Below, one piece after another: positions 21,564 to 39,266 of a DNA stretch of 40,719 bases. The stretch lies in the IMG/VR virus record IMGVR_UViG_2734482569_000014; one strand, written 5' to 3'. Made by a program: the position numbers and the translations under genes. Below the pieces are notes generated by a model that saw nothing but the letters and a program-made list of their open reading frames with translations, was not told where the DNA came from and did no database searches. How positions within the stretch are numbered: position 1 is the first letter of the stretch; the number at the start of each line of letters is the position of its first letter. The stretch is from a virus. Its lineage: Duplodnaviria > Heunggongvirae > Uroviricota > Caudoviricetes.

Positions 21564-21959
21564 CTAACCTCGCATGTCAAAGCCAGATTTCTGAAAATCT
21601 CTGTAGACTTCCGGATTGTTGAAGGCCGGAAATTTGGCTTTATGAGCTGCGGACTTTATCGCTTCGCAATAGGCTTTATCACCGTTACTGGTAGATATTT
21701 TTAACGCCGTGCCATCCTGAGAGAATTCCATATGCAACCTGCATTTTTTCCCTTTCCAGTTATGCGGCTCATCAAGTTTGGCATTAATTGCAGCTCTGAT
21801 TCCCCGCGCTTGCGCCCCCCATTCATCCTGATCATCCCAGCGTCCTGAACTGCAACTACCTGTAGCAGTAGTTTTGTGGCAATCTGAAGGGTGTAAAGGT
21901 GTGCATCCCGCAACAAAACCGACCCAAAAAGTCAACATAACGATTTTCTTTAATCCCAC
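21564..21959 (-). CDS. Lipoprotein with divergent TolA domain-III-like C-terminal module
   Basis: GTG start with GAGGAG SD; signal peptide plus lipobox FVAGC; C-terminal region shares the two-Cys pattern (GKKCRLHMEF...GDKAYCEAIK...PEVYRDF) with the paralogue at 22110..22538. Confidence 0.55.
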   Translation of the reverse strand: MGLKKIVMLTFWVGFVAGCTPLHPSDCHKTTATGSCSSGRWDDQDEWGAQARGIRAAINAKLDEPHNWKGKKCRLHMEFSQDGTALKISTSNGDKAYCEAIKSAAHKAKFPAFNNPEVYRDFQKSGFDMRG

Positions 21960-22109
21960 TTCTTGCTCCTCAATCCATTAAAATCTCAGCAATAGTAGTT
22001 GTTACGTCCGCCACTGGCTCAGAGCTGACTATCCGCTAAATTTAGCTCAGTGCCGTAGCTGTGTCAGAACAAACCTAAGCCGAAACCGTTTATTACAAAA
22101 CAATAAATA

Positions 22110-22538
22110 TCAGGGTTTAAAATCCAGCACCCCATTTTGAAATACTTTATATACTTCCGGCGAAGGGGGGGCAGGTATATCAGCATTCTTTATCGCATTC
22201 ATCGCTTCACGACATAAATCGAGGTCTCCACTTTCTCTTTTAACCTCCAGTAGAAGGCCATTCGGGGCCATATGCATTCTCAGTGTACACTCTTTTCCTG
22301 AATACTTACTCGCATCCCCGAACTGTTTTTCGATGGCGCTCTTGATTTGATGGGCATACAGACGGATATCCTCACTAACATCAGAAGTACGTTCAGATGA
22401 ACTCACATACTGTGTCTCTATTGCTTTATCGGAGTAATATGATGTACGGTCATGATAATTTGTCGATACAGCATCAGTGCACCCGATAATAATCCCACTA
22501 ATAATCAACGTAAGAATTGATGCGCTACGAAAACCCAT
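22110..22538 (-). CDS. Lipoprotein with TolA C-terminal domain (domain III)-like module
   Basis: Signal peptide plus lipobox IIGC; C-terminus YAHQIKSAIEKQFGDASKYSGKECTLRMHMAPNGLLLEVKRESGDLDLCREAMNAIKNADIPAPPSPEVYKVFQNGVLDFKP is near-collinear with the E. coli TolA C-terminal domain as I recall it. Confidence 0.7.
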   Translation of the reverse strand: MGFRSASILTLIISGIIIGCTDAVSTNYHDRTSYYSDKAIETQYVSSSERTSDVSEDIRLYAHQIKSAIEKQFGDASKYSGKECTLRMHMAPNGLLLEVKRESGDLDLCREAMNAIKNADIPAPPSPEVYKVFQNGVLDFKP

Positions 22539-22567
22539 TTTTCCTCACATATGTCATATAGTAAAGG

Positions 22568-22597
22568 ATTATATATACCGTTGTTTTGGACGCTCAA
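22568..22597 (-). promoter_or_regulatory. Candidate sigma70 promoter for the upstream lipoprotein gene
   Basis: Minus strand: -35 TTGAGC, 18-nt spacer, -10 TATAAT, about 30 nt upstream of the AGGAA SD and ATG at 22538. Confidence 0.35.
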
Positions 22598-23135
22598 ACA
22601 GCGAATCAGATCAAATAAAACGCACATTTGTTAACATTTACACAAAGTCTGCGTGGGATATTCTGAAAGAATATCCATAATGTGGAGAGAATCTATTGAA
22701 GTGCATGGTGCCGGGTGCCTCCCGGTGAACAAAATGTTCGTGATACCTGTCGGCGACAGAAAAGGTTAATGGTATCACCCCACCGCACAGGGGGATTCAC
22801 CATGCAGGAGTTTTCTTAGCAAACTCACTGCGCGCCCGGCAACTCCCAACCACATAAAATGCGGAGTTTGTGGCATTTATGCATATAACTCGCAGGAATT
22901 ATCTTAAAAAACTGATGTCGATCCGGATTAAAAAGAAGCAGGTCATCATCAGATGACTGGAAAAAAGGAAAACAAAAAATACTCATCATACAGTTTTGAT
23001 TGCAGGGATGAGCCTGCTATGCACAATATGCAGAATATAAGCAAGATAAAAATATGCAGGCATATTATTTCGGATCTTGTTATTAACACAACCTTTTTAA
23101 TAATCATTTGGCATACAATAAACCAGCCCAAAAAG

Positions 23136-23155
23136 AACCGCCTAAACAGGCGGTT
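23136..23155 (-). terminator. Hairpin with downstream U-run (terminator or pause structure in late leader)
   Basis: Inverted repeat AACCGCC/GGCGGTT with 6-nt loop; on the minus strand it is followed by CUUUUUGGG. Confidence 0.35.
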
Positions 23156-23182
23156 GGTCAATACAAAGGATGCTTCGTCTTT

Positions 23183-23212
23183 ATTATAGTAATCTGAGGC
23201 GTCGGGTGTCTT
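23183..23212 (-). promoter_or_regulatory. Candidate late (PR'-like) promoter
   Basis: Minus strand: -35 AAGACA, 18-nt spacer, perfect -10 TATAAT; hairpin 23136..23155 lies about 20 to 40 nt downstream of the predicted start. Confidence 0.3.
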
Positions 23213-23472
23213 GTATCAGACAACATATTGTCCCGCTAAACAGCGAATTACAAACCACCCTGCAATGATCTCTCATCTCATTTTATATGAGTTGACGACA
23301 TCAGGATAACGCATCATCAGCCCCTGCCAAGAAATATCAAAACTCCCGCCAGCAATGTGTTATCACAATATTGTAAAAAAAACACAGCACCGAAACTATA
23401 ACTGGTCTCTGTTATAATTTGGAGCAGAAAGACCAGTTGCCCAACTAGCAGCATTCTCCCCTGCTTTCCTGA

Positions 23473-23505
23473 CGTAAAAAAACCGCATTAAGCGGTTTTT
23501 TTACG
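23473..23505. terminator. Bidirectional intrinsic terminator downstream of the Q-like gene
   Basis: Perfect 14-bp inverted repeat CGTAAAAAAACCGC / GCGGTTTTTTTACG with 5-nt loop; A7/U7 tracts flank a GC core on both strands. Confidence 0.5.
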
Positions 23506-23582
23506 ATGTCCATGTCTGCAATCCGCCTCGCGATACAGCTTTGCGAAGCATAGCAAAATTGAAGCAGTTTATACGTAAGAAA

Positions 23583-24125
23583 TCAAGCCATTTTCTCAGC
23601 AAATGATTCACGCATGGGAATATATAGGGCATACTCAGCAACAGCTAACCAATTAGCAATCCGTTTTTCGCATGTGCTAAAACACCACTCTGGGTGTGCA
23701 TCATTTAGCAATTCAGCCATTTTGCGCTTAGTCATCCCCCGCCCTTCATAGCGTTGCCGGAGAATGCAAATCAATCCTGGATGCTCTGCCAGCACCTCAC
23801 TTATGACTCGATCAATACATAACGCCTCTGCATCAGTACAATGCGCCAGCCAGCTCTTTTGCTTGCCGTTGATCATCTCTCGCAAAAACGCTTCCAGCTC
23901 AGCTTTCTCTATTCCCGCTTTTTTCATTCTGCGCAGGGCTTCATTAATGGCTGTTTTCGTCAGTTTTTTGGATGCCAACAACTGATTGAACATATTCCCT
24001 GACCTGCCACCGCCAATATACGACCAGCGCCCCCACATACGTAGTTTTCCCTGAATCCAGACACTTTCCAGCGTGGTGAGGCGAAGGTGTTCTCCGCTTT
24101 TTCCTGTATTCGTTGGGTAAATCAT
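23583..24125 (-). CDS. Putative late antiterminator Q-like protein
   Basis: 180 aa ORF that is the last gene before the terminator and late-control gap upstream of the lysis cassette; assignment by position, family not verified. Confidence 0.4.
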   Translation of the reverse strand: MIYPTNTGKSGEHLRLTTLESVWIQGKLRMWGRWSYIGGGRSGNMFNQLLASKKLTKTAINEALRRMKKAGIEKAELEAFLREMINGKQKSWLAHCTDAEALCIDRVISEVLAEHPGLICILRQRYEGRGMTKRKMAELLNDAHPEWCFSTCEKRIANWLAVAEYALYIPMRESFAEKMA

Positions 24126-24412
24126 AAATGACCTTTCTTTCTCCAGATTTCTTGTGTGCGAAAAACCCCTTCAGCATGCATCAGGCGCAATTCTTCTTTG
24201 GTGTAATCGCTGGTTTTTACCCGCCCGTCGATTAGATCGTGGCATGAGCTACAGGCTATCGCCGCCTGCATATCATGTGGTTTTGTCGCTGTTCCGCACG
24301 TCCCCGCCAGCCTGTAATGCGCCAGCACAGAGGTTTCGGGATTGTGATTGCAGTAGCCAGGGATTCTGATCTGGCACATCTGGCCTTTAGCCGCTTTACG
24401 TAAATTCACCAT
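24122..24412 (-). CDS. YbcO-like (DUF1364) Cys-rich nin-region protein
   Basis: 96 aa with CQIRIPGYCNH...CSSCHDL cysteine pattern; same size as the DLP12 ybcO product as I recall. Confidence 0.5.
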   Translation of the reverse strand: MVNLRKAAKGQMCQIRIPGYCNHNPETSVLAHYRLAGTCGTATKPHDMQAAIACSSCHDLIDGRVKTSDYTKEELRLMHAEGVFRTQEIWRKKGHL

Positions 24413-25011
24413 TACGCAAACTCCAGTAGTTGTGCGGCCACATTTTCAACTTCCTCCTGAGAGGAGAATTTACGGAACAGAATCCAGTTCCACAGCACAT
24501 TCAGTACAGATTTATAAACCTGCTGAAACTCGACTTCGTCCATATTCGCAAAAGCGATGGATTTTGCCCGACGCCCACGGCTACCGTCCGGATAAATATG
24601 CTCGGTGTAAAATCCGGCCTGAATGGTTACCCACTCGCGGAAAGCCTCAAACGACTTTAGCAACGCCGTATCCCGGGTTCTACGAGTCGCAACGGTGTTA
24701 AGGTATTGCTCTGCGGCATCACTCAGGGCTGGCGTGTGTTCCCGACCAACTGATTCGCACAGGTAATCAACGAAACCAGACAGCAGTTCTCGTTCGCGAG
24801 GCGTGATCGCCCCACCGACCGGAGTCCAGTAATCGAATCCCAGTTGCAGGAGTTTGAAAAAACGCTTGTGGAATGCGTAGTTACGCACACGCTTAAAGTC
24901 TGCGTGTATCCACTCACCTATTTTGATTTGATGCAGAAAATCGCAACTCTCCGGCGTCGCCGGGAGAAGTAAACCAGAAGAGGTTTGTTTGACCAGTTGT
25001 ATATGCGCCAT
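24412..25011 (-). CDS. Nin-region hypothetical protein (DUF1367-like)
   Basis: 199 aa ORF upstream of the YbcO-like gene in the same operon; family guess from memory only. Confidence 0.4.
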   Translation of the reverse strand: MAHIQLVKQTSSGLLLPATPESCDFLHQIKIGEWIHADFKRVRNYAFHKRFFKLLQLGFDYWTPVGGAITPRERELLSGFVDYLCESVGREHTPALSDAAEQYLNTVATRRTRDTALLKSFEAFREWVTIQAGFYTEHIYPDGSRGRRAKSIAFANMDEVEFQQVYKSVLNVLWNWILFRKFSSQEEVENVAAQLLEFA

Positions 25012-25291
25012 TTCTCAATCTCTCGATGGCGCAGCGCAGCAGATGCCAGTTGTTCAGGCTGACGAATAAAGTATAAATAAACTGGCTATGGTGTAAAGCC
25101 CCACATAGCATGAACAAACACTACATATCAAATAGCTGGTACAAGGATAGAAATACGACACTTATTATTAAAAACGATTAGATAAATTACATTTTAATGT
25201 TATGCAAAAGTTCTTTTTTATCATAACATTTCAATAAAAGCATTACAGATGCAATCATCCCGTCATCATCAATTATTTAAGGTGGTTAAAC

Positions 25292-25378
25292 ATGGAAAAT
25301 AACAAGTTCGCACATCTCGCTCCTTTTTTATCCGTAATCCTTTTCGCTTGTTGTTTTATATGGGCATTATTTTTATAA
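25292..25378 (+). CDS. Small hydrophobic peptide (28 aa), candidate membrane peptide
   Basis: AAGGTGG SD 6 nt before ATG; hand translation MENNKFAHLAPFLSVILFACCFIWALFL; lies in AT-rich intergenic DNA; below track cutoff. Confidence 0.3.
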   Translation: MENNKFAHLAPFLSVILFACCFIWALFL

Positions 25379-25786
25379 AGTAGCCACATGATAAGTTGCT
25401 GGAATCATATTTCCCACTCAAGTCATTAACATTTGATAAGATATATCTAAAAGGACGCCTTTACATTATTTATGCGTATATAATTTATTTATATACACAG
25501 TAAAGGTATCCTGGGAAAATATTTATCGTTAAAAAATACATCATAAATAATTAAGCTGAAATTTCAGAACACAACTAATACACACAATAAGGTTCAGTAA
25601 CAGTAATCTATGTGGACTACATCGAGATTTTTTGATTAAACTTTAATAACTTATTCCTAACACACAGAATGCATAAACTAAAAGTAAAACAAATAGTTAT
25701 ACGAAAAACAACCATATTTATTCTATCTTCTCCTCTAATCAACATATCAATTATGTGTTTCATAACAGCTTGACATAACCCTCCAA

Positions 25787-25809
25787 AAGATGCATTTTTA
25801 ATGCATGTT
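25787..25809 (+). promoter_or_regulatory. NsrR-type operator-like inverted repeat upstream of the YeaR-like gene
   Basis: AAGATGCATTTTTAATGCATGTT: ATGCATT arms inverted around a short spacer; a perfect TTGACA lies at 25770..25775. Confidence 0.4.
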
Positions 25810-25824
25810 TTGGAGGAGGTGGTT

Positions 25825-26163
25825 ATGACACACAAGAGAATTCCTAAAGATTGGGTAATCAAACGCTCAACTCCGTTCTTCACAAAAGAGAACGTACCTT
25901 CAGCGTTATTAACACATCATAATACAGCAGCAGGTGTTTTTGGGCAGTTGTGCGTAATGGAAGGCACTGTAACATATTATGGTTTTACTGATGAGAATGC
26001 TACTGAACCGGAGATAAAAGTAGTCATTAATGCTGGCGCTTTTGCAACAAGCCCACCACAATACTGGCACCGTGTTGAACTAAGCGATGATGCTCAGTTT
26101 AATATTAACTTTTGGGTCGCTCCAGACTTTTCGGGCGAAAAAGTCTATAGCACCAAAAAATAG
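25825..26163 (+). CDS. YeaR-like DUF1971 protein (tellurite-resistance TehB-associated domain)
   Basis: Likely start MTHKRIPKDW with GGAGGAGG SD; strong resemblance to E. coli YeaR as recalled (RSTPF...FNI.F.VAP). Confidence 0.7.
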   Translation: MTHKRIPKDWVIKRSTPFFTKENVPSALLTHHNTAAGVFGQLCVMEGTVTYYGFTDENATEPEIKVVINAGAFATSPPQYWHRVELSDDAQFNINFWVAPDFSGEKVYSTKK

Positions 26164-26202
26164 ATGATCATATTAAAAATGCTTTAACAGTCAGACCCGG
26201 CA

Positions 26203-26240
26203 GGGCTATCCCCGACGGGTCTCATTTTTGTAAATATATT
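26203..26240 (+). terminator. Intrinsic terminator candidate after the YeaR-like gene
   Basis: AGACCCG...CGGGTCT inverted repeat followed by CATTTTTG on the plus strand, about 40 nt after the stop. Confidence 0.4.
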
Positions 26241-26783
26241 GGTTCTACATTGACAGGAGACTTCAACCATAAGAAGTAATCTGAATACTTGAGCAATAAA
26301 TTTACTTAAGATTAATGAGCGCACCTTGCCGGACAAAGATAAACCAAGGTAACACCTTTTTTCTAGCCAGTATGTAATCAATCAGAAAGCCGCTCCATAA
26401 GAACAACAGCAAGACAATAAATTGCCATTACAGCCGCAATAGCCAGCGCACATTTGAGAACCAGCACGACAACCCCCTGTATTAGACGCACACCAGTCCT
26501 GATAAATATGAGGCTGTCTCGTCAGTGATTCAATACAACTATTGGGTATAGTTTCTGTGATTTTATTCTGTAGAAATGGAACACAACAACCAGTCACCAC
26601 CAGCACTTCCTTAAATGCTCTAAGTCAGAAACAAGCCAACATTTTAGTCCGCTTTGAGCGATCTGCAGACATTGCTAGCAGCCTTCTGTGTGAATTCTCA
26701 GGGAGCAGGTCGGCATAGCATCACGTTGAGGCTCTTACCCTACTTGTTCACACCAACCCTAACTCCACAGACTGATTCATAAA

Positions 26784-27785
26784 TTAGTAATCTGCGTGTT
26801 TCGCACTTTTCAGAAATGCTTTCATATTTTCATTAGGTCGCTCAATTTCGAAGTTACTTCCATATAACTCTTGTAATTTTGGCCATAACTTACTTAATAA
26901 CCCTCTCCTGCGATAAAATGGATGTATCCAAACGGTAGATAGGTACGGAGAATTTGCATTTGAATTGTTTATTGTGACCAGCCCAACTAAACATTGTCGA
27001 TAACCACTATTATCCATTGATTGTATTTCTTCGACGAATGGATACGCGATTACATCAGTCCAACCATGATCGGTTGTATCCCATTGCATTCCGTCATGAC
27101 ATTCCTTCGACTGATAGCGGCGTAAAGCTACACACGCGAGCTTTTGCCAATCTGGAGAATTAATTGTGATCTCTTCATCGTATGACGCGCCTATTGGAGC
27201 GGGTATTGGTCTGATTAATCCAGCATGGCATTCATCATAGAACTTCATGTTTCCCTCAGAAACGTTGTGTACGTTGGGTTGCTCCATGTGTGCGCCATTC
27301 AAAAATAGCTCTGATAGTAGTGTATCTACACTGTAATCTTTATTGATTATTGTCGGCTTAGAGTTTTTCTTATTAAGGCCGCGAGTAACGATTTTTTGAT
27401 CAATGTTAACAACATGGAATAATCCGTCGGGGAGGCTAGCGAACCACGATGGGGCATCGGACCAGAATAGCATGCCTTTTGTACTTCTTAAGAGTTTAAT
27501 TAAGTTAATACAAGCTTCTTCACTAGTCTTGCCGTTGATGCGAAGTATGTTAGGACTAAAGTAATATTCATCCATATCAGGGAATGCAGCTTCGCAAAAC
27601 TCCTGTACATAATTTAGCACCTGGATTCTACAGAGATCATCATAGCTGGTAATAACTAAGGGGGTATCTTCATTACTATTATGATTATCAATAATGCAAT
27701 CTATAGCGAGACTTACTGCTTTGCGTATCACTTCAGTTGAATCTAACGACTCTAAAAATTTTGTCTTTCGTGTGCGAATATCCAT
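26784..27785 (-). CDS. Two-domain protein with C-terminal GNAT acetyltransferase-like domain
   Basis: 333 aa; C-terminal VWIHPFYRRRGLLSKLW resembles the GNAT acetyl-CoA-binding motif; N-terminal about 240 aa unassigned; AT-rich codon usage. Confidence 0.5.
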   Translation of the reverse strand: MDIRTRKTKFLESLDSTEVIRKAVSLAIDCIIDNHNSNEDTPLVITSYDDLCRIQVLNYVQEFCEAAFPDMDEYYFSPNILRINGKTSEEACINLIKLLRSTKGMLFWSDAPSWFASLPDGLFHVVNIDQKIVTRGLNKKNSKPTIINKDYSVDTLLSELFLNGAHMEQPNVHNVSEGNMKFYDECHAGLIRPIPAPIGASYDEEITINSPDWQKLACVALRRYQSKECHDGMQWDTTDHGWTDVIAYPFVEEIQSMDNSGYRQCLVGLVTINNSNANSPYLSTVWIHPFYRRRGLLSKLWPKLQELYGSNFEIERPNENMKAFLKSAKHADY

Positions 27786-27800
27786 GTATGACCTGCGCTA

Positions 27801-28823
27801 TTAAAATTCATGAATGAACGGTTTGTCATCTGGTTGCAAAATGGTGGTTTTATTCGTTGCTACATTTAAACTGTTGTAGAGCATAATTGCCAGGTTCGAT
27901 GCATTTTCAATCAGCGTTTCAAGATCCTGGTCTGTAATCACTACGAGGTTCCCTTCTTTATCCTTTCCACCACGATGCACTAAGTGATTTCGATTGAGGG
28001 TTGCCAATTCAATAGCTTCTATCGGACAGTCTTTTTGTACTTTTATATCGAATGTAGCTTCATAGCGGTCGATTACCTTTTTAGTGCTATGCCAGCTTGC
28101 ACTGATCAAGTGTTCCTTGATTGACCTGATTAGCTCTCCCCTAATTTTCTCGATGGGTTCACCCTTGAAAGGCAACGCAGCAATATCTTTGCTTACTTTA
28201 AATTCAGTCTTACCTTTTTCTATACAATTGGCTATGTAGACATCATCTTTCTCTATAGAATTAATGAATAGCTCAACATAAAGCGTTTCCAAAGCTGTAA
28301 TAACATTCGTGTAGAGCAAACTAAGCAAGTGGTTTTTTTGCTGTTGTTCAGTTTTATCTTTTGCAAGTTTTTTTATTTTATCGATATTATCAATGAATTT
28401 TAAATACGGATTACCGGAAGACGTTACAGCGTCGTAGATATCATCATCGTACCAATCATCTATATTATTTGAGTTTCCAGACCAGTCAAAACATTGTGTT
28501 TGTAATTCATCTACTAATTCCTCAATATACTCAGATTTAACATATTGACCGAAGATGGATTGTAGTTCTTCGCTCGCATCATACGGCCCGCCATATATGT
28601 AAGCATAGCCACCTTCTCTACTTTCATACGGACAAGCATTTGCCGGATCTTCAAAGTTTTCAAAGAACCAGTTTTTCATTACTTCGAGTTGATCTTTTTT
28701 GCTTATGTATTTTAAAGATTTTAGTGGAACTTTCTTTCCATTAACCTCGAAAACAATTTTCACGATGTAACGCTCCCTTGTATCAATTGCGCAACTATTA
28801 TACCACAGCGAAATACAGGGCAT
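27801..28823 (-). CDS. HEPN-motif protein (candidate RNase, Abi-like)
   Basis: Likely start MPCISLWYN with AAGGAGG SD (track ORF begins upstream at a GTG, 28892); C-terminal LNRNHLVHRGG fits the R-x4-H HEPN signature; AT-rich; 15 nt upstream of the GNAT gene on the same strand. Confidence 0.45.
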   Translation of the reverse strand: MPCISLWYNSCAIDTRERYIVKIVFEVNGKKVPLKSLKYISKKDQLEVMKNWFFENFEDPANACPYESREGGYAYIYGGPYDASEELQSIFGQYVKSEYIEELVDELQTQCFDWSGNSNNIDDWYDDDIYDAVTSSGNPYLKFIDNIDKIKKLAKDKTEQQQKNHLLSLLYTNVITALETLYVELFINSIEKDDVYIANCIEKGKTEFKVSKDIAALPFKGEPIEKIRGELIRSIKEHLISASWHSTKKVIDRYEATFDIKVQKDCPIEAIELATLNRNHLVHRGGKDKEGNLVVITDQDLETLIENASNLAIMLYNSLNVATNKTTILQPDDKPFIHEF

Positions 28824-28961
28824 AACCTGCCTCCTTAAACTAACATACCATGAGCCAGCAATGTCCGCTATTGGCACAAAGCGGACAACCACGCTAGCTC
28901 TCCCCTGTGCCAGAAAAATGTCAATTTACATATGAACTAATGCTCTTTGATCTAGTAACGT

Positions 28962-29393
28962 CTATAAATACCGAAGATTTCCTTGATAAAATGCCAGTAC
29001 ACGTTTCATAACTTCACTCTTCCGGCACTCGCGACAGATTATGTTCTGACGCCTGTCATAGCGGCGTATTTCTCCGTCTGGTAATGACCAGATAAGGTCA
29101 GGATCAACCACAACCGTTTTTTTCACCTTTGCCCTGGATAGTTTTTTGCGGGCGTTTTTCCAATCCTTACGAGCCTGTTCAGACGGGAATAACCCATAGC
29201 CAGAGTTGTATACATCGCCACTGGCAACCAACTCTCTGGCAAGAATGCTCATCAGATATCTTGTCGCACCTGTCTTGGCCTCCAGTTGCCTTAACGTCTC
29301 GCGCCCACTCTGGCGTACCAACTCAACAACCTGCTCCTTAATTTTTTCACGCTCTTCCTGTGTAAAAACTTTTGCCATAAGCGCCTCCGGCAA
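28962..29393 (-). CDS. Hypothetical early-operon protein
   Basis: 143 aa lysine/arginine-rich ORF with C-terminal CRECR pair; no family recognised. Confidence 0.35.
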   Translation of the reverse strand: MPEALMAKVFTQEEREKIKEQVVELVRQSGRETLRQLEAKTGATRYLMSILARELVASGDVYNSGYGLFPSEQARKDWKNARKKLSRAKVKKTVVVDPDLIWSLPDGEIRRYDRRQNIICRECRKSEVMKRVLAFYQGNLRYL

Positions 29394-30206
29394 TCACTTT
29401 TCCGACACAATACGACTGGAGGAATCGACAATCTGTCGGACAATATCCCGGTGCTTGTTCAGCTCCCGCAGCGCGGCGCAGACTCGCTCCCACTTCTGGA
29501 CATGATTTTTCGCCCGACGCAGTTCGCGGTTTGCCATATGCAGCGATGGTAAAACTAGGTCATCCGCTTGCGTTTCAGTAAACGATGGCAGCGACTGCAC
29601 AATGTCCGCCACAGTTTCTGTTTTAATATCTTCCTGTGTTGCCGCTTCCTGTACTGGTAACGCAACACCGGCTGGCTGAGGAAAGGCTTTACCATCAGTT
29701 TCCGCTACCGATGCAGCTTTCGGCTCTGCTGGTAAATTATCGCCCGGCATGCAGTAACGAAATTTACTGTTCTGGTTTACGCGAATCAGGCGTCCTTTGC
29801 TGATTGCCATTGCCAGCGTTGAAGCAACTTTGCGGGATGTTGTACCGAACAGCGTAGCCAGTTCATCCGCCGTTTGTGGTCCGCGTTGTTCAATCGTCGC
29901 GGTTAAATCGCACTCTGAGATTTTCACTACAGTTGCCGTGGTGGTTTCTTCCGGCAGTTCTGCCTGCATTGGCTGTTCCTGCTGAACGTTGTTATCAGCC
30001 ACACGCCAGGTGTACGCGCTTTTATCAACGAAACCAGCTTTTTTCAGTTCCCATAGTTCGTTCAGCACTTCTTCACGACTGATATCAAGTCGCGCAGCAA
30101 GTTCTATGGATGTGGCTTTTCCCATTGCTTTCAGTGCGTCAAAAACAGTCTCCATAAAAATTTCCTCCCGGTAAAAATTACTTCTCAATTCCTGGCTGGA
30201 CGACAT
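29394..30206 (-). CDS. YdaW-like hypothetical protein (possible winged-helix N-terminus)
   Basis: 270 aa ORF downstream of the DnaC-like gene; true start may be the internal [11 protein letters not shown]. Confidence 0.4.
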
Positions 30207-30924
30207 TCGGACGCCAGCTCTCCCAGTTAAAATTCACCCATCGCCCGCCGTTCATGGTCATGCGATCCATAATCCGCTCGCCGAGCAATGTTTTCATGGC
30301 CTCATAGTTCAGGTTTGTCAGCATCCCCACGCTGCGCATCGACGCTGTCCGGCGATCAACAATCTGGTGCAGCACCACCTGCTCGTTTTTCGTCTCGCGC
30401 TGAATGCCAATTTCATCAAGAACCAGCAGATCCACTTCGCATAGTTCCCGCAAAAATTTTTCGCCTGACTGCCCATCGTCATAGCTGGCGTGCAGGGCAC
30501 TCATAACATCAGCCACGGTAACCACAATCACTGTCTGACCGTCTTTCAGCAGGCGATTCCCGATAGCTGCCGCTAAGTGGTTCTTCCCGGTACCAGGTTT
30601 TCCGCTGAACGCAAAATTTGTACACCCGGTCATCAGTTCATCAGCGATGGATTTCGCCTGACTCAACGCGTATCGCTGCGCTTCGTTCTGCACCTGGTAA
30701 TTCGAAAACGAGCATTTGCGGTGCAATGGCTGGATGCCAGAGCGATTCAGAATTTTTTCCACCCGCAACTGACGATTCTGACGGTTGATCTCCTCACAAC
30801 GTTTCTGGCCTTCGGAAAGTTGCCACTCGCGCCACTCCGCTACCGTCTTGAATGGCGCGGTTACATGTGACGGGGCCAGTCTGCGGATACGTTCAAGAAC
30901 GTCGCCTGTCGCAATATTTTTCAT
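30178..30924 (-). CDS. ydaV: DnaC/IstB-like replication helicase loader
   Basis: Walker [16 protein letters not shown] and Walker B LLVLDEIG; follows the O-like gene. Confidence 0.85.
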
Positions 30925-32973: not shown

Positions 32974-33263
32974 ACCAGCATAAATCCGGTAGCGTCCCCC
33001 TCCGGGTTTGTGCTTCACTTTATCCCATCTCATTTTTTTACACACAAAATGTACTTATAGTACTTTACATCAATGAACACAAAGTACATTATATACCTAC
33101 CAACCCACCCCGCCCCACAGAACGCAGGGCAATACTTCGAGTTACCAGGCAGTGGTCAGGGGTTAAGTAGCCAGCCCGAGGCGTATGAACATGACGGCAG
33201 GGTTCAGATTTTGCAGTGCAGCAGGTTTCAGTTCCGCCACCCGGCGTTAAGGGGAGAGATAAG

Positions 33264-33398
33264 ATGGTGCATTACGAAGTAGTTCAGTATTTGATGGATT
33301 GTTGCGGTATCACTTACAACCAGGCTGTGCAGGCTTTACGCAGCAACGACTGGGATCTCTGGCAGGCAGAAGTCGCTATACACAGCAACAAGATGTGA
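33264..33398 (+). CDS. ydaG: Small Rac protein YdaG-like (44 aa)
   Basis: MVHYEVVQYLMDCCGITYNQ... with AAGGGGAGAG SD; size matches Rac YdaG. Confidence 0.55.
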   Translation: MVHYEVVQYLMDCCGITYNQAVQALRSNDWDLWQAEVAIHSNKM

Positions 33399-33408
33399 GA
33401 TTCGCAAA

Positions 33409-33564
33409 ATGCAAAAAATCGACCTCGGCAACAACGAATCCCTGGTGTGCGGCGTGTTCCCCAACCAGGATGGAACGTTCACTGCCATGACGTATACCAA
33501 AAGCAAAACATTTAAAACCGAAACTGGTGCGCGCCGATGGTTGGAGAAGCACACAGTAAGCTAA
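33409..33564 (+). CDS. ydaF: Small Rac protein YdaF-like (51 aa)
   Basis: Hand translation MQKIDLGNNESLVCGVFPNQDGTFTAMTYTKSKTFKTETGARRWLEKHTVS; below track cutoff. Confidence 0.55.
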   Translation: MQKIDLGNNESLVCGVFPNQDGTFTAMTYTKSKTFKTETGARRWLEKHTVS

Positions 33565-34049
33565 CGATTAAAACGTCTACTCCTGCTGTTCCAGAATAAC
33601 TTCATAAAATGGGAGTATTTTTCGGTGACGAGATAATAAGAACAGTTTGCGCTATCACTCTGATGTTGAATGATGCCCTTCCGTTCTAATTTTTTCATAA
33701 CCGGGTTACGGCAAGGAGAAGTGATAATAAGATTTCCTGTTTTAAGGAAATCTTTAAATACAGCGATTTCTTTCTCAGATAAACGAAGCAATACTCGTTG
33801 CTCTGGTAGTAATGAATAATGCTTTTGAATATGTGCTCGCAATCTTGAGAAGGAAATGGCGACCACGAAAGAAAAGGCAAAAACGATAATCTGAAAGAGC
33901 CAAGGTATTTCAGTATAAGCATTGAATGCGACAGTAAACTCTTTCGGTATCAGCCAGAGAGTGAGACCAAAAATGATAATCGTATACATAAGTATTTCGA
34001 GTGGCTCGTTAGCAAAAAGTTTCAACAATGGAGTAAATACATCCAACAT
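33561..34049 (-). CDS. sieB: Superinfection exclusion protein B
   Basis: Likely start MLDVFTPLLKLFANEPLEILMYTIIIFGL giving 162 aa with N-terminal TM segments, as for Rac SieB. Confidence 0.75.
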   Translation of the reverse strand: MLDVFTPLLKLFANEPLEILMYTIIIFGLTLWLIPKEFTVAFNAYTEIPWLFQIIVFAFSFVVAISFSRLRAHIQKHYSLLPEQRVLLRLSEKEIAVFKDFLKTGNLIITSPCRNPVMKKLERKGIIQHQSDSANCSYYLVTEKYSHFMKLFWNSRSRRFNR

Positions 34050-34490
34050 ATCAATAACTCTCAACTGTAAGGGTATTGAAATGTTAACACAAGCTCTCGC
34101 TGTAGGGGTATAGCCGAGACCACCGAAGCCCGGAGGTGGTGAAATAAAACCGGGCACAACACGAAGGCGCATTTCCGATATCCATAAAGAGTCGGTCTTG
34201 TCTGTTAAATTTAAATGGTGGGAGTGCGCCTCCGGTTGTAAATAACGACATTGCTGTGTGTAGTCCTGGCGGCATCAGTTTTTTTCTTGAAGTTCGGCTG
34301 ATGTCCGCCCTTTTTAAAGTGAATTTTGTGATGCGGTGAATGCGGCTAAGCGCACGTGGCACAGTTAAAAGTCATGTTAGTCCTTATTGGTTTGGGTGGG
34401 AAAGCCGACTGTAATTGTTAACTGGTTGCAGTCACCTGGAGGCACCAGGCACCGCATCAACAAAGTTCATTTGTAAAAATGGAGATAATT

Positions 34491-34712
34491 ATGATTGCAC
34501 ATCACTTCGGAACTGATGAAATACCACGTCAGTGTGTGACTCCTGGCGATTATGTTCTTCATGAAGGCCGGACATATATTGCCTCGGCAAACAATATTAA
34601 AAAGCGAAAACTATATATTCGTAACCTGACCACAAAAACATGCATTACTGACCGCATGATTAAAGTCTTCCTCGGTCGTGATGGTTTACCTGTAAAGGCG
34701 GAGTCATGGTGA
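34491..34712 (+). CDS. kilR: FtsZ inhibitor KilR
   Basis: [35 protein letters not shown]..., 73 aa, matches Rac KilR as recalled. Confidence 0.75.
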
Positions 34713-34882
34713 TGACTAAGAAAATAAAATGTGCTTACCACCTTTGCAAAAAAGACGTTGAAGAAAGCAAAGCTATTGAAAGAATGCTTCACTTCATGCA
34801 CGGGATTTTATCAAAAGACGAACCGAGAAAATATTGCAGTGAAGCTTGTGCCGAAAAAGACCAGATGGCACATGAACTTTAA
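34712..34882 (+). CDS. ydaE: YdaE-like zinc-binding small protein (56 aa)
   Basis: Hand translation [56 protein letters not shown]; start overlaps kilR stop (TGATG). Confidence 0.55.
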   Translation: MTKKIKCAYHLCKKDVEESKAIERMLHFMHGILSKDEPRKYCSEACAEKDQMAHEL

Positions 34883-34956
34883 TTAATTGACTATTCGAAA
34901 CTGAATTTATGCCAGAAATGGCAGGTATTCGCTCAACCTTAATTAAGGAGAAAAAC

Positions 34957-35232
34957 ATGATTACCAATTATGAAGCCACTGTTGTAACTACCGATGACAT
35001 TGTTCACGAGGTGAATCTGGAAGGAAAGCGCATTGGCTACGTAATTAAAACAGAAAATAAAGAAACCCCATTCACTGTGGTTGATATCGATGGTCCATCA
35101 GGCAACGTAAAAACACTTGATGAAGGTGTCAAAAAAATGTGCCTGGTGCATATCGGAAAGAATCTGCCCGCAGAAAAAAAAGCCGAATTTCTGGCAACTC
35201 TAATTGCAATGAAATTAAAAGGTGAAATCTGA
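34957..35232 (+). CDS. racC: RacC
   Basis: MITNYEATVVTTDDIVHEV..., 91 aa; immediately upstream of recE. Confidence 0.7.
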   Translation: MITNYEATVVTTDDIVHEVNLEGKRIGYVIKTENKETPFTVVDIDGPSGNVKTLDEGVKKMCLVHIGKNLPAEKKAEFLATLIAMKLKGEI

Positions 35233-35333
35233 AAGAAATAGCCTGCGTATGGCGCAGGCTATGAACAGTGTGTATCCGGCAAGATCATTCACTGAACAAA
35301 ACGAATTTTAATCTGAGTTGAGGTTAAAAAACA

Positions 35334-37934
35334 ATGAGCACAAAACCACTCTTCCTGTTACGGAAAGCGAAAAAATCATCCGGTGAACCTGACGTCGTCC
35401 TGTGGGCAAGCAACGATTTTGAATCGACCTGTGCCACTCTGGACTACCTGATCGTTAAGTCAGGTAAAAAACTGAGCAGCTATTTTAAAGCTGTTGCCAC
35501 GAATTTTCCTGTCGTTAATGACCTGCCCGCTGAAGGTGAGATCGATTTTACCTGGAGTGAACGCTATCAACTCAGCAAAGACTCCATGACATGGGAACTA
35601 AAACCGGGAGCAGCACCAGACAACGCTCACTATCAAGGCAATACCAACGTCAACGGCGAAGACATGACTGAGATTGAGGAGAATATGCTACTCCCAATTT
35701 CTGGCCAGGAACTGCCCATTCGTTGGCTTGCTCAACACGGCAGCGAAAAACCGGTAACGCACGTTTCACGCGACGGACTCCAGGCATTACACATTGCTCG
35801 GGCTGAAGAACTACCGGCTGTTACTGCCCTGGCTGTTTCCCACAAAACCAGCCTGCTCGACCCGCTGGAAATTCGCGAACTCCACAAACTGGTTCGTGAC
35901 ACTGACAAAGTTTTCCCTAATCCTGGTAATTCAAACCTGGGACTGATAACTGCTTTTTTCGAAGCATACCTGAACGCTGACTACACCGATCGAGGACTGC
36001 TGACAAAAGAGTGGATGAAGGGTAATCGTGTTTCACACATCACTCGCACGGCTTCCGGTGCTAATGCTGGCGGCGGAAACCTCACCGATCGCGGCGAAGG
36101 TTTCGTACACGATCTGACGTCACTGGCGCGGGACGTAGCCACTGGCGTACTGGCCCGTTCAATGGATCTGGACATCTATAACCTTCATCCGGCACACGCT
36201 AAACGCATTGAGGAAATTATCGCTGAAAATAAACCGCCCTTTTCTGTTTTCCGCGACAAATTCATCACCATGCCTGGCGGGCTGGATTATTCCCGCGCCA
36301 TCGTGGTTGCGTCCGTAAAAGAAGCACCAATTGGGATCGAGGTCATCCCCGCGCACGTCACTGAATATCTGAACAAAGTACTGACTGAAACCGATCATGC
36401 CAACCCTGATCCGGAAATCGTGGATATTGCCTGCGGTCGCTCCTCTGCCCCGATGCCGCAGCGAGTAACAGAAGAAGGAAAACAGGATGATGAAGAAAAA
36501 CCGCAACCATCTGGAACAACGGCAGTTGAACAGGGAGAGGCTGAAACAATGGAACCGGACGCAACTGAACATCATCAGGACACGCAGCCGCTGGATGCTC
36601 AGTCACAGGTAAATTCTGTTGATGCGAAATATCAGGAACTGCGGGCAGAACTCCATGAAGCCCGGAAAAACATTCCATCAAAAAATCCTGTCGATGCCGA
36701 TAAATTGCTTGCTGCATCACGTGGTGAATTTGTTGACGGAATTAGCGACCCGAACGATCCGAAATGGGTAAAGGGGATCCAGACTCGCGATTGTGTGTAC
36801 CAGAACCAGCCAGAAACGGAAAAAACCAGCCCGGATATGAATCAACCTGAGCCAGTAGTGCAACAGGAACCGGAAATAGCCTGCAATGCCTGCGGCCAGA
36901 CTGGCGGGGATAACTGCCCTGACTGTGGTGCGGTGATGGGCGACGCAACATACCAGGAAACATTCGATGAAGAGAGTCAGGTTGAAGCTAAGGAAAATGA
37001 TCCGGAGGAAATGGAAGGCGCTGAACATCCGCACAATGAGAATGCTGGCAGCGATCCGCATCGCGATTGCAGTGATGAAACTGGCGAAGTCGCAGATCCC
37101 GTAATCGTAGAAGACATAGAGCCAGGTATTTATTACGGAATTTCGAATGAGAATTACCACGCGGGTCCCGGTGTCAGTAAGTCTCAGCTCGATGACATTG
37201 CTGATACTCCGGCACTGTATTTGTGGCGTAAAAATGCCCCCGTGGACACCACAAAGACAAAAACGCTCGATTTAGGAACCGCTTTCCACTGCCGGGTACT
37301 TGAGCCGGAAGAATTCAGTAACCGCTTTATCGTAGCACCTGAATTTAACCGCCGGACAAACTCCGGAAAAGAAGAAGAGAAAGCGTTTCTGAGGGAATGC
37401 GCAAGCACAGGAAAAACGGTTATCACTGCCGAAGAAGGCCGGAAAATTGAACTCATGTATCAGAGCGTTATGGCTTTGCCGCTGGGGCAATGGCTTGTTG
37501 AAAGCGCCGGACACGCTGAATCATCAATTTACTGGGAAGATCCTGAAACAGCAATTTTGTGTCGGTGCCGTCCGGACAAAATTATCCCTGAATTTCACTG
37601 GATCATGGACGTGAAAACTACGGCGGATATTCAACGATTCAAAACCGCTTATTACGACTACCGCTATCACGTTCAGGATGCATTCTACAGTGACGGTTAT
37701 GAAGCACAGTTTGGAGTGCAGCCAACTTTCGTTTTTCTGGTTGCCAGCACAACTATTGAATGCGGACGTTATCCGGTTGAAATTTTCATGATGGGCGAAG
37801 AAGCAAAACTGGCAGGTCAGCTGGAATATCACCGCAATCTGCGAACCCTGGCTGACTGCCTCAATACCGATGAATGGCCAGCTATTAAGACGTTATCACT
37901 GCCCCGCTGGGCTAAGGAATATGCAAATGACTAA
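35334..37934 (+). CDS. recE: Exodeoxyribonuclease VIII (RecE)
   Basis: 866 aa, same length as K-12 RecE; followed by overlapping recT. Confidence 0.9.
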
Positions 37935-38736
37935 GCAACCACCAATCGCAAAAGCCGATCTGCAAAAAACTCAGGGAAACCGTGCACCAGCAGCAATTAA
38001 AAATAACGACGTGATTAGTTTTATTAACCAGCCATCAATGAAAGAGCAACTGGCAGCAGCTCTTCCACGCCATATGACGGCTGAACGTATGATCCGTATC
38101 GCCACCACAGAAATTCGTAAAGTTCCGGCGTTAGGAAACTGTGACACTATGAGTTTTGTCAGTGCAATCGTACAGTGTTCACAGCTCGGACTTGAGCCCG
38201 GTAGCGCCCTCGGTCATGCATATTTACTGCCTTTTGGTAATAAAAACGAAAAGAGCGGTAAAAAAAACGTTCAGCTAATCATTGGCTATCGCGGCATGAT
38301 TGATCTGGCTCGCCGTTCAGGTCAAATCGCCAGCCTGTCAGCCCGTGTTGTCCGTGAAGGTGACGAGTTTAATTTCGAATTTGGCCTTGATGAAAAGTTA
38401 ATACACCGCCCAGGAGAAAACGAAGATGCCCCTGTTACCCACGTCTATGCTGTCGCAAGACTGAAAGACGGAGGTACTCAGTTTGAAGTTATGACGCGCA
38501 AACAGATTGAGCTGGTGCGCAGCCAGAGTAAAGCTGGTAATAACGGGCCGTGGGTAACTCACTGGGAAGAAATGGCAAAGAAAACGGCTATTCGTCGCCT
38601 GTTCAAATATCTGCCCGTATCAATTGAGATCCAGCGTGCAGTATCAATGGATGAAAAGGAACCACTGACAATCGATCCTGCAGATTCCTCTGTATTAACC
38701 GGGGAATACAGTGTAATCGATAATTCAGAGGAATAA
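37927..38736 (+). CDS. recT: Single-strand annealing protein RecT
   Basis: Start [12 protein letters not shown] overlapping recE stop; 269 aa. Confidence 0.9.
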
Positions 38737-38791
38737 TTCAGCCTGGCGGTGTAATGCACCGCCAACTTGAAATATTTTTATGAGAAAAATT

Positions 38792-38941: not shown

Positions 38942-38966
38942 AATAAACGAACCACTGGAAATAATA

Positions 38967-39167: not shown

Positions 39168-39266
39168 ATTGCATTGTATTCAAATTAAAACTTCATAGCT
39201 GATTATTAATAATCAACATCGGGCGTCAATTTAAGTCTAACATTGGCGCCTGCCAGAGGTGATGCG

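What the first reader, a model, noticed from the sequence alone, without database searches (positions are those of the whole stretch)
26784..28892. AT-rich two-gene operon pairing a HEPN-motif protein with a GNAT-domain fusion protein
Two co-oriented minus-strand genes 15 nt apart sit in visibly AT-richer DNA than the flanking replication and nin-like genes, suggesting a separately acquired cargo cassette in the early-right operon, a classic slot for phage-borne defence genes. The upstream protein has a C-terminal LNRNHLVHRGG segment fitting the R-x4-H HEPN RNase signature, with an acidic N-terminal domain of unknown type. The downstream protein ends in a GNAT-like acetyl-CoA-binding motif (VWIHPFYRRRGLLSKLW) after an unassigned domain of about 240 aa. 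I do not recognise a HEPN plus GNAT-fusion pair as a named defence or toxin-antitoxin system; it may be a new abortive-infection or toxin-immunity module.
Basis: partly seen in the sequence, partly recalled or inferred. Interest (0 to 1): 0.8.

Follow-up and report, generated by a model that had tools for sequence, protein, structure and literature searches.

The report
Published phage-defence cassette DS-33 in prophage
This AT-rich two-gene cassette in a Rac-like E. coli prophage is the anti-phage system DS-33, published in 2025-2026; its HEPN nuclease gene alone gives the protection, and the job of the neighbouring acetyltransferase-like gene is still unknown.

Summary
Two co-oriented minus-strand genes lie 15 nt apart in 38.5% GC DNA, between the replication/DUF977 genes and the nin-like genes of a Rac-like prophage.

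The system is not new. The HEPN protein is 100% identical to WP_014639476.1, and the GNAT protein is 332/333 identical to WP_000354965.1. Together these are DS-33 of DeWeirdt, Mahoney and Laub (Science 2026).

Their plaque data show 2-6 logs of protection against T7, T3, Bas67 and Bas26. Protection is lost in the HEPN deletion and in R258A, and kept or slightly raised when the GNAT gene is deleted. This does not fit a toxin-immunity pair.

My comparative analysis agrees. The pair holds in only one sub-clade, HEPN relatives are usually solo, and the GNAT gene often survives loss of the HEPN gene.

Two things are not in the paper. The tested GNAT allele carries L at a position that is P in 44 of 44 loci. 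The cassette is also bracketed by a conserved stem-loop shared with other defence cassettes in this slot.

The parts
26696..28863 (-). Variable cargo cassette (DS-33), as defined against an otherwise 99.8% identical prophage
   Evidence: Homology to L002 (E. coli NCTC9066 Rac-like prophage) stops at 26695 and resumes at 28864. GC is 0.385. The same segment, 26710-28886, occurs at 97% nt identity in Serratia grimesii with unrelated flanks, and at 86% in Aeromonas.
27801..28763 (-). DS-33A gene: HEPN/RES-NTD1 plus HEPN protein, 320 aa, GTG start; identical to WP_014639476.1
   Evidence: 0 differences over 320 aa. phrog_17908. The published deletion and the R258A mutant both abolish defence.
28428..28763 (-). 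N-terminal HEPN/RES-NTD1 domain (about aa 1-112), presumed sensor or regulatory module
   Evidence: PF18870 scores E 1.9e-4 and 22.2 bits, below the gathering score of 27.4, for this sequence. It is hit in 51 of 54 homologues. The motif WFxxNFEDP...YxYIYGGPYDA is highly conserved. The same domain is fused to PIN_8 and to other C-terminal domains in viral contigs.
27840..28346 (-). HEPN domain (about aa 140-308)
27972..27992 (-). Catalytic R-x4-H motif: R258 N H L V H263 R264
   Evidence: These residues are invariant in 54 sequences. The codons were read directly from the sequence. The published R258A mutant loses defence.
26784..27785 (-). DS-33B gene: orphan N-terminal domain plus GNAT fold, 333 aa; equals WP_000354966.1
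   Evidence: It differs from the tested DS-33B (WP_000354965.1) only at residue 289: P in the window, L in the tested allele. phrog_16994.
27201..27785 (-). Orphan alpha/beta N-terminal domain of DS-33B (about aa 1-195)
26787..27200 (-). GNAT-fold domain of DS-33B (about aa 196-333), ending after helix alpha-4
26895..26924 (-). GNAT motif-A region HPFYRRRGLL (aa 288-297)
   Evidence: R292 is invariant and H288 and P289 are at least 90% conserved. P289 is present in 44 of 44 loci examined, whereas the published tested allele has L289.
28773..28805 (-). Putative cassette promoter (extended -10 TGgTATAAT, 28797-28805) and Shine-Dalgarno AGGGAG (28773-28778)
   Evidence: Read directly from the sequence. 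The same arrangement is kept in Aeromonas (TGaTACAAT ... AGGAGA ... GTG). The consensus scan did not report it because the -35 is poor. Promoter function is inferred, not shown.
28854..28886 (-). Upstream copy of the bracketing stem-loop element (GTCCGCTTTGTGCCAATAGCGGACATTGCTGGC)
   Evidence: 2 matches in the window, 0 expected. It folds at -27 kcal/mol with z -3.7. It is shared with the 3HP and PD-T7-1-like cassettes.
26647..26679 (+). Downstream copy of the bracketing stem-loop element (GTCCGCTTTGAGCGATCTGCAGACATTGCTAGC)
   Evidence: It lies about 105 nt after the DS-33B stop codon. On the transcribed strand the hairpin is followed by a U-rich stretch.

Best explanation
The region is DS-33, an anti-phage defence cassette that has already been published and experimentally validated. 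It is carried as a moron in the variable slot between the replication/DUF977 (ren-like) genes and the nin-like genes of a Rac-like E. coli prophage.

Shown:
- DS-33A (27801-28763) is identical to the tested protein.
- The cassette protects E. coli by 2-6 logs against T7, T3, Bas67 (Autographiviridae) and Bas26 (Epseptimavirus).
- Protection needs the DS-33A gene and its HEPN arginine R258.
- Protection does not need DS-33B.

Inferred mechanism: DS-33A is a self-contained sensor-effector protein. Its C-terminal HEPN domain is a metal-independent RNase that forms a composite R-x4-H active site on dimerisation. Its N-terminal HEPN/RES-NTD1 domain, a portable module also found on RES, PIN and other effectors, keeps the RNase off until a phage cue arrives. 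RNA cleavage then halts translation and phage growth, probably at the cost of the infected cell.

The cassette appears to have its own extended -10 promoter, so it can be expressed from the lysogen.

DS-33B is a co-transcribed accessory protein: an orphan alpha/beta domain plus a C-terminally truncated GNAT fold that most resembles protein lysine acetyltransferases. It joined DS-33A once, in one sub-clade, and often outlives it. Its role is unresolved. My leading guesses are an independent cargo function or a mild dampening of DS-33A.
For: Identity with DS-33: the window DS-33A is 320/320 identical to WP_014639476.1, and DS-33B is 332/333 identical to WP_000354965.1.

Published phenotype (Table S7 of PMC13092281, two replicates, -log10 EOP):
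- Wild type: T7 3.8/2.6, T3 3.3/2.4, Bas67 4.0/2.0, Bas26 5.0/5.9.
- HEPN deletion: all 0.55 or below.
- R258A: all 0.8 or below.
- GNAT deletion: T7 4.8/4.3, T3 3.3/3.3, Bas67 4.0/3.3, Bas26 5.0/4.9.

HEPN autonomy: HEPN homologues at 74% identity or less are solo genes in 15 viral loci and in L003, and the 77%-identical L076 copy is also solo.

Defence context:
- The same slot holds 3HP (PADLOC Hp1-3) in a 99.8% identical prophage.
- A related phage holds a PD-T7-1-like gene between the same stem-loops.
- The Aeromonas copy sits beside Thoeris ThsA/ThsB and AbiEi.

The cassette is found in 205 of 5426 complete E. coli genomes.
Against: - No RNase activity, RNA target, trigger or abortive-infection phenotype has been measured for DS-33, either here or in the paper. 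DS-33 is not discussed in the paper's main text.
- The window sequence itself is below the Pfam gathering score for PF18870 and gives no PF18735 hit. Family membership rests on homologues, on the fold and on the paper's HHblits result.
- The sensor role of NTD1 is inferred only from its domain-fusion pattern.
- 'DS-33B is dispensable' was tested on five phages only, from a plasmid, and with an allele (L289) that differs from every natural copy I examined (P289 in 44 of 44). An effect of intact DS-33B could therefore have been missed.
- The pair has kept its 15-16 nt spacing through about 25% protein divergence and three unrelated genomic contexts. That argues for some functional link.
Confidence: 0.85

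Rival explanations
1. Obligate toxin-immunity or toxin-antitoxin pair. The HEPN protein is a constitutively toxic RNase, and the GNAT fusion protein is needed to neutralise it or to complete the system.
Against: The published GNAT-gene deletion strain grows and defends as well as or better than wild type in two replicates. HEPN homologues at 77% identity or less are solo genes. GNAT homologues at 62% identity or less sit beside unrelated genes such as polA, a beta-lactamase-like gene and DUF4400. There is no PADLOC or TA-family hit.
Confidence: 0.05
2. DS-33B is a safety catch: an acetyltransferase that dampens DS-33A by acetylating it or its target. This would lower autoimmunity at some cost in defence strength.
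For: Deleting the GNAT gene raised protection against T7 by 1.0 and 1.7 logs, against Bas67 by 0 and 1.3, against T3 by 0 and 0.9, and against T5 by 1.0 and 0.5 in the two replicates. The pair is co-inherited through about 25% divergence, and losses within the clade are one-sided. The GNAT domain most resembles protein lysine acetyltransferases: ATAT, ESCO1, HAT1 and MYST. There is a precedent in the covalent neutralisation of HEPN toxins by MNT AMPylation (8xdj and 7ae2; established knowledge).
Against: The differences are about one ten-fold dilution step, were not tested statistically, and go the other way for Bas26 (0 and -1.0). They could also reflect polar or expression effects of the deletion. 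The deep branches of the GNAT family are solo and unrelated to any HEPN gene. The catalytic Tyr position of typical GNATs is Leu, the motif-A glycine is not conserved, and strands beta-6/7 are missing, so activity is uncertain. No interaction or acetylation data exist.
Confidence: 0.25
3. DS-33B is an independent cargo gene that merely travels with DS-33A. It may have its own defence range or another accessory function.
For: Most family members are solo genes in variable or mobile regions: an ICE with DUF4400, an island with Fic and HNH genes, a prophage, and a position next to a ThsA-like SIR2 protein. It persists after the HEPN gene decays. It is dispensable for DS-33 defence.
Against: The HEPN deletion construct (DS-33B alone) gave no protection against the five phages tested. 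DefensePredictor gave it a log-odds of only 1.08, against 9.45 for DS-33A. The fixed 15-16 nt spacing and co-divergence with DS-33A suggest more than chance linkage.
Confidence: 0.4

Closest known systems
DS-33 (working name 'GNAT') of DeWeirdt, Mahoney and Laub, DefensePredictor, Science 2026 (PMC13092281; bioRxiv 10.1101/2025.01.08.631726)
   Same: It is the same two genes. DS-33A, WP_014639476.1, is 100% identical. DS-33B is 332/333 identical. The order and spacing are the same, and the source is also E. coli.
   Different: The window carries the consensus P289 in DS-33B, whereas the tested clone has L289. The paper gives only plaque data and no mechanism.
PD-T4-2 subunit B (RiboL-PSP-HEPN protein; Vassallo et al. 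2022, PMC9519451)
   Same: It is a remote HEPN homologue. The DS-33 paper's HHblits search gives 96.1% probability over 55% of DS-33A. PF18735 is hit in 31 of 54 DS-33A homologues. Both systems are E. coli defence genes carried on mobile elements.
   Different: There is no PADLOC PD-T4-2_B hit even at E <= 1. The N-terminal domain (NTD1) differs, the partner gene appears to differ (not checked here), and the reported phage differs (T4 versus T7-like and Bas26).
HEPN/RES-NTD1-fused HEPN proteins predicted as conflict-system components (Anantharaman et al. 2013, PMC3710099)
   Same: The domain architecture, NTD1 followed by HEPN, is the same.
   Different: That work was a computational prediction with no phenotype. 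It lists NTD1 with the MAE_28990/MAE_18760 HEPN families, whereas here Pfam places the HEPN domain nearest to RiboL-PSP-HEPN.
HEPN-MNT type VII toxin-antitoxin systems
   Different: The partner here is a GNAT-fold protein, not an MNT nucleotidyltransferase, and it is not needed to keep cells alive. DS-33A also has an extra N-terminal domain.
Single-protein HEPN abortive-infection and prophage defences (AbiD/AbiF, HepS, Tha)
   Same: These are stand-alone HEPN proteins that protect against phages and are often prophage-borne. HepS and Tha are triggered by phage tail proteins.
GNAT toxins of type II TA systems (TacT, AtaT, ItaT, KacT)
   Same: They share the GNAT fold and are encoded on mobile DNA in a conflict context (general knowledge).
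   Different: Those are small single-domain toxins of about 160-180 aa, paired with RHH/DUF1778 antitoxins. DS-33B is 333 aa with an orphan N-terminal domain and a truncated GNAT C-terminus, and it has no such partner.

Membership tests
DS-33 (DeWeirdt et al. 2026) | Proteins match WP_014639476.1 and WP_000354965.1, in that order and adjacent to each other | tested here: met
   320/320 and 332/333 identical, with a 15 nt gap.
DS-33 (DeWeirdt et al. 2026) | Confers anti-phage protection that depends on the HEPN gene | not testable with these tools
   Taken from the published Table S7 for the identical DS-33A protein. It was not re-measured for this window's allele pair.
HEPN superfamily | Four-helix up-and-down bundle HEPN fold | tested here: met
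HEPN superfamily | Conserved R-x4-6-H motif at the start of the last core helix | tested here: met
   R258-NHLV-H263 is invariant in 54 homologues, together with E159.
HEPN superfamily | Metal-independent RNase activity | not testable with these tools
   There is only indirect evidence: the published R258A mutant loses defence.
Pfam PF18735 RiboL-PSP-HEPN | Scores above the Pfam gathering score | tested here: inconclusive
   The window protein has no hit at E <= 1. 31 of 54 homologues hit it, best E 7e-11. The paper's HHblits search gave 96.1% probability to a RiboL-PSP-HEPN protein.
Pfam PF18870 HEPN/RES-NTD1 | Scores above the Pfam gathering score (27.4 bits) | tested here: inconclusive
   The window protein scores 22.2 bits, E 1.9e-4, below the cut-off. 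51 of 54 homologues match at E <= 0.01, best 1e-6.
GNAT superfamily | GNAT fold (beta1-alpha1-alpha2-beta2-4-alpha3-beta5-alpha4-beta6) | tested here: met
GNAT superfamily | Motif A, Q/R-x-x-G-x-G/A, for binding the acetyl-CoA pyrophosphate | tested here: inconclusive
   The sequence is R292-R-R-G-L-L. R292 is invariant, but the glycine is replaced in several homologues and the last G/A position is L. Pfam Acetyltransf_1 scores 19.9 bits against a cut-off of 20.7.
GNAT superfamily | Acyl-CoA-dependent acyl transfer | not testable with these tools
   No biochemical data exist here or in the paper.
Type II/VII toxin-antitoxin pair | The second gene is required to neutralise the first, so deleting it is toxic | tested here: not met
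   I did not run this test myself. The published GNAT-gene deletion strain is viable and defends. Solo HEPN homologues are common.
PADLOC-DB v2 known or candidate systems (including PD-T4-2, AbiD/F) | Significant match to a system HMM | tested here: not met
   DS-33B has 0 families. DS-33A has only chance-level hits at E >= 0.011.
Phage moron / defence hotspot cargo | Present or absent, or swapped, between otherwise near-identical prophages; deviant base composition; own promoter | tested here: met
   It is swapped for 3HP in a 99.8% identical prophage. GC is 0.385 against 0.50. A conserved extended -10 lies upstream; promoter activity was not tested.

The most novel reading that the evidence does not exclude
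DS-33B is an active protein acetyltransferase with a previously undescribed substrate-recognition domain. It restrains the DS-33A HEPN RNase by acetylation. This would be a new way of regulating HEPN effectors, parallel to MNT AMPylation. The published experiment would have missed it because the cloned allele carries L289 at a position that is proline in every natural copy I examined. A second novel strand concerns the bracketing stem-loop element, which may be the exchange junction that lets DS-33, 3HP, PD-T7-1-like and other defence cassettes swap in this lambdoid slot.
Probability: 0.2. Interest if true: 0.6.

Novelty: already known. Interest (0 to 1): 0.3.

Why it matters
As a discovery it adds little. 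The exact system was predicted, cloned and shown to defend E. coli in a 2025 preprint and 2026 paper, and the NTD1-HEPN architecture was catalogued in 2013.

The check still contributes four things:
- It places DS-33 in its native setting, a swap-prone defence slot of Rac/Qin-like prophages that is bracketed by conserved stem-loops.
- It shows that the HEPN-GNAT pairing arose once and that the HEPN gene is lost repeatedly while the GNAT gene stays.
- It flags that the only functional test of the GNAT gene used an atypical allele.
- It leaves a defined open question: what a narrowly distributed GNAT protein with an orphan domain does beside a self-sufficient HEPN effector.

Tried and rejected
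- PADLOC scan of both proteins: no meaningful hits.
- NCBIfam: nothing above noise.
- Megablast against phage genomes: only the DUF977 edge matched.
- Rfam on 22-33 kb: only STnc100, far from the cassette.
- Consensus promoter and terminator scan: counts no higher than in shuffled sequence. It missed the extended -10, which I then found by eye.
- A hypothesis that DS-33B always follows some variable effector gene: rejected. Its upstream neighbours include polA, a beta-lactamase-like gene, DUF4400 and an HTH gene, or nothing at all.
- A hypothesis that P0148 was a HEPN::GNAT fusion: rejected. It is a fusion between a DnaC-like protein and DS-B, created by a prophage deletion.
- An attC- or integron-like reading of the flanking repeats: rejected, because no GTTRRRY core is present. 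A Cys-His-Asp triad idea for the N-terminal domain was considered but could not be tested.
- My first search pattern for the flanking repeat had the wrong spacer length and found nothing. It was corrected.
Full report
**What is there**

The window is a Rac-like lambdoid prophage of E. coli. Positions 21981-26695 and 33238-40664 are 99.8-99.97% identical to the Rac-type prophage of strain NCTC9066, which carries intR, xisR, ralR, recET, kilR and sieB.

On the minus strand, after the replication genes (a replisome organiser, a DnaC-like gene and DUF1627) and a DUF977 ren-like gene (28962-29393), lie two ORFs. One spans 27801..28892 and the other 26784..27785, and they are 15 nt apart.

GC content is 0.383 over the finding. 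The right flank is 0.499 and the whole window is 0.46. The next 1.7 kb to the left, which holds a plus-strand DUF1971 gene, is also AT-rich at 0.362.

**Gene boundaries**

The upstream ORF is 363 aa from its first GTG, but several lines point to a GTG start at 28761-28763, giving 320 aa:
- The RefSeq annotation uses it.
- All 54 aligned homologues start at MK(I/V)VF.
- A Shine-Dalgarno AGGGAG lies 9 nt upstream, and an extended -10 (TGgTATAAT) lies at 28797-28805.
- The same promoter, Shine-Dalgarno and GTG layout is kept in the 86%-identical Aeromonas copy.

The cassette therefore probably has its own promoter. That is inferred, not shown.

**It is a swappable cassette**

Against NCTC9066, homology breaks at 26695 and resumes at 28864. 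The 2168-bp DS-33 segment is replaced there by a 3.3-kb three-gene cassette whose proteins match PADLOC Hp1, Hp2 and Hp3 (E 5e-41, 1e-10 and 4e-11). From memory, these correspond to the 3HP defence system.

The cassette also occurs in other settings:
- In a Qin-like prophage with different flanks (L001).
- In Serratia grimesii at 97% nt identity with unrelated flanks.
- In Aeromonas at 86% nt identity, beside Thoeris ThsA/ThsB and AbiEi.

Of 5426 complete E. coli genomes, 205 carry at least 80% of it, and roughly 700 more match only at the DUF977 end of the query.

**The HEPN protein**

- Pfam gives HEPN/RES-NTD1 (PF18870) at E 1.9e-4 for residues 26-92, below the gathering score. Among 54 homologues, 51 hit this family and 31 hit RiboL-PSP-HEPN (PF18735, best E 7e-11).
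- R258, H263, R264 and E159 are invariant. The N-terminal WFxxNFEDP...YIYGGPYDA block is nearly invariant.
- NTD1 was described in 2013 as a module fused to HEPN, RES and ABC domains. In viral contigs I also found it on a PIN_8 protein and on proteins with other C-termini.

**The GNAT protein**

- Pfam Acetyltransf_1 scores 19.9 bits against a cut-off of 20.7 for residues 264-311. It is hit in 17 of 45 homologues.
- The chain ends after helix alpha-4. In motif A only R292 is invariant. The usual catalytic Tyr position is Leu. Catalytic competence is therefore open.
- An exhaustive search of 1.84 billion representatives found only 21 clusters. All full-length matches have the same roughly 330-aa architecture; the rest are fragments, one deletion fusion and one repetitive protein.

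**It is already published**

A full-text search and supplement look-up of DeWeirdt, Mahoney and Laub (DefensePredictor, Science 2026, PMC13092281; preprint January 2025) found WP_014639476.1 plus WP_000354965.1 listed as working id 'GNAT', DS-33, defensive = TRUE.

The window's HEPN protein is 320/320 identical to WP_014639476.1. Its GNAT protein is WP_000354966.1, which differs from the tested protein only at residue 289.

Their Table S7 gives two replicates, as -log10 EOP:

| Genotype | T7 | T3 | Bas67 | Bas26 | T5 |
|---|---|---|---|---|---|
| Wild type | 3.8/2.6 | 3.3/2.4 | 4.0/2.0 | 5.0/5.9 | 0.8/0.1 |
| HEPN deletion | about 0 | about 0 | about 0 | 0.5/0.3 | 0.5/0.1 |
| R258A | 0.8/0.5 | -0.3/0.3 | 0.5/0 | 0.7/0.4 | 0.4/0.3 |
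| GNAT deletion | 4.8/4.3 | 3.3/3.3 | 4.0/3.3 | 5.0/4.9 | 1.7/0.5 |

Bas67 is a Berlinvirus (Autographiviridae) and Bas26 an Epseptimavirus (Demerecviridae).

The HEPN gene and its catalytic arginine are therefore necessary. The GNAT gene is dispensable for defence against these phages. The paper's main text and the preprint do not discuss DS-33 beyond counting it among four HEPN-containing systems. I found no later paper on it.

**Comparative genomics of the pairing**

Of 53 viral-contig loci with a relative of the HEPN protein, the 21 that also carry the GNAT gene are all at least 96% identical to the window. Another 15 loci with full-length HEPN homologues at 29-74% identity lack it, and most have a convergent gene immediately downstream. 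The remaining 17 loci match only the NTD1 domain.

Of 12 genome loci with a GNAT-family gene, only the 100% and 95% copies have the HEPN gene. Targeted look-ups add two more pairs:
- Aeromonas, at 87% (HEPN) and 78% (GNAT) identity, with a 16 nt gap.
- A metagenomic contig, L086, at 78% and 74%, also with a 16 nt gap.

Several GNAT genes stand alone. Those in Mangrovibacter (91%), Enterobacter and Rahnella (86%) and A. salmonicida (75%) have no HEPN gene. The Citrobacter-type island keeps a 64-codon 3' remnant of the HEPN gene, covering aa 257-320 at 90% identity.

Simple NJ trees put all paired HEPN genes in one clade. They scatter the paired GNAT genes among solo ones within one clade. The simplest reading is one fusion of two autonomous genes, followed by repeated loss of the HEPN gene.

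Deeper GNAT relatives (62% identity or less) sit next to polA, a beta-lactamase-like gene, DUF4400, an HTH gene or a ThsA-like SIR2 gene, or stand alone.

**Interpretation**

- **Shown:** the identity with DS-33, the defence phenotype and the genetic requirements (published), the two folds, and the cassette nature.
- **Inferred:** DS-33A is a self-contained sensor-effector. Its HEPN RNase is held off by, or activated through, NTD1, and it probably acts by abortive infection.
- **Unresolved:** the role of DS-33B.

Three observations keep a functional link between the two genes alive:
- The spacing and co-divergence of the pair.
- The one-sided pattern of gene loss.
- The slightly higher defence of the deletion strain, about one dilution step and not tested statistically.

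The solo distribution of both wider families and the deletion phenotype argue against any obligate partnership.

There is one caveat on the published test. The cloned DS-33B has L289 next to motif A, whereas all 44 copies I examined have P289, across identities from about 39% to 100%.

**Side observation**

The cassette is bracketed by two copies of a palindromic stem-loop with the core GTCCGCTTTGWGC-N5-GCRGACATTGCT, at 26647-26679 and 28854-28886. None are expected by chance, and each copy folds on its own.

The same element brackets other cargo:
- The 3HP cassette in L002, L087 and L095.
- A cassette with a PD-T7-1-like gene (E 3e-69) in L098.
- It also adjoins an IetS gene in L092.

Sequence divergence between cassettes starts in or just inside the stem-loop. 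The Serratia copy of DS-33 keeps both stem-loops despite unrelated flanks.

The stem-loops could be moron terminators or insulators, or recombination junctions for cassette exchange. I could not tell which.

**Verdict**

The system is already known as DS-33, and the two-component toxin-immunity idea is contradicted by published genetics and by the gene distribution. Interest is low to moderate. It rests on the unexplained GNAT partner, the atypical tested allele and the stem-loop-bracketed hotspot.

Noticed in passing
window 26647-26679 (+) and 28854-28886 (-); also L002 4667/8023, L087 3150/6506, L095 285/3641, L098 4143/6278, L092 11069, L008 4900 and about 7180: A conserved palindromic stem-loop element (GTCCGCTTTGWGC-N5-GCRGACATTGCT) brackets the DS-33 cassette. 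The same element brackets 3HP and PD-T7-1-like cassettes in the same slot of related prophages and adjoins an IetS gene. Sequence divergence between cassettes begins in or just inside the stem-loop. The Serratia copy of DS-33 carries both stem-loops into an unrelated context. It matches no Rfam family.
   Followed up: partly
DS-33B residue 289 (window 26919-26921): The DS-33B allele tested in the published work (WP_000354965.1) has Leu at position 289, next to GNAT motif A. The window and all 44 homologous loci examined have Pro. The published 'GNAT gene is dispensable' result may therefore have been obtained with a compromised allele.
   Followed up: partly
L078-L081 (Citrobacter-type island), about 5790-5982: An intact DS-33B homologue (86% identity) is preceded by a remnant of only the last 64 codons of the HEPN gene, aa 257-320 including the R-x4-H motif. 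This catches HEPN loss in progress.
   Followed up: yes
protein P0148 (E. coli); corresponds to window 30178..30924 fused to 26784..about 27386: A 320-aa chimeric protein joins residues 1-119 of the prophage DnaC-like replication protein to residues 134-333 of DS-33B. A prophage deletion has removed DUF1627, DUF977, the HEPN gene and the start of the GNAT gene.
   Followed up: yes
NZ_CP084096.1 2831671-2835307 (hit H4): In one E. coli O78 genome the otherwise 100% identical cassette is split into two pieces, with an IS2 transposase annotated under the match. This suggests insertional disruption.
   Followed up: no
L002 4799-7801 (E. coli NCTC9066): The same prophage slot carries three genes matching PADLOC Hp1, Hp2 and Hp3, which RefSeq annotates only as hypothetical proteins.
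   Followed up: partly
L072-L075 (Aeromonas), 5420-5836 and 9093-12963: The Aeromonas DS-33 pair lies in a defence island with Thoeris (ThsA SIR2/STALD and several ThsB TIR genes), AbiEi and an Xre-MbcA/ParS-type antitoxin. It is preceded by a 138-aa gene with weak similarity to PD-Lambda-2_B (E 4e-7).
   Followed up: no
window 16693-18406 (-): Two adjacent genes encode a TET-associated glycosyltransferase (TAGT, E 4e-34) and a ParB_N-domain protein. This may be a DNA-modification or defence-related module in the late region of the prophage.
   Followed up: no
window 18544-20019 (-), GC 0.35-0.41: A second AT-rich cargo gene encodes a TrkH-family potassium transporter (E 1e-144), like trkG of the K-12 Rac prophage.
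   Followed up: no
window 21564-22538 (-) and 22649-22835 (-): Two small ORFs with TolA C-terminal domains (E 1e-14 and 2e-23) lie next to an STnc100 sRNA match (86.6 bits).
   Followed up: no
window 25801-26163 (+), GC about 0.33: A plus-strand DUF1971 (TehB N-terminal-like) gene sits in AT-rich DNA directly beside the cassette slot. It is conserved in the NCTC9066 prophage and may be a further moron.
   Followed up: no
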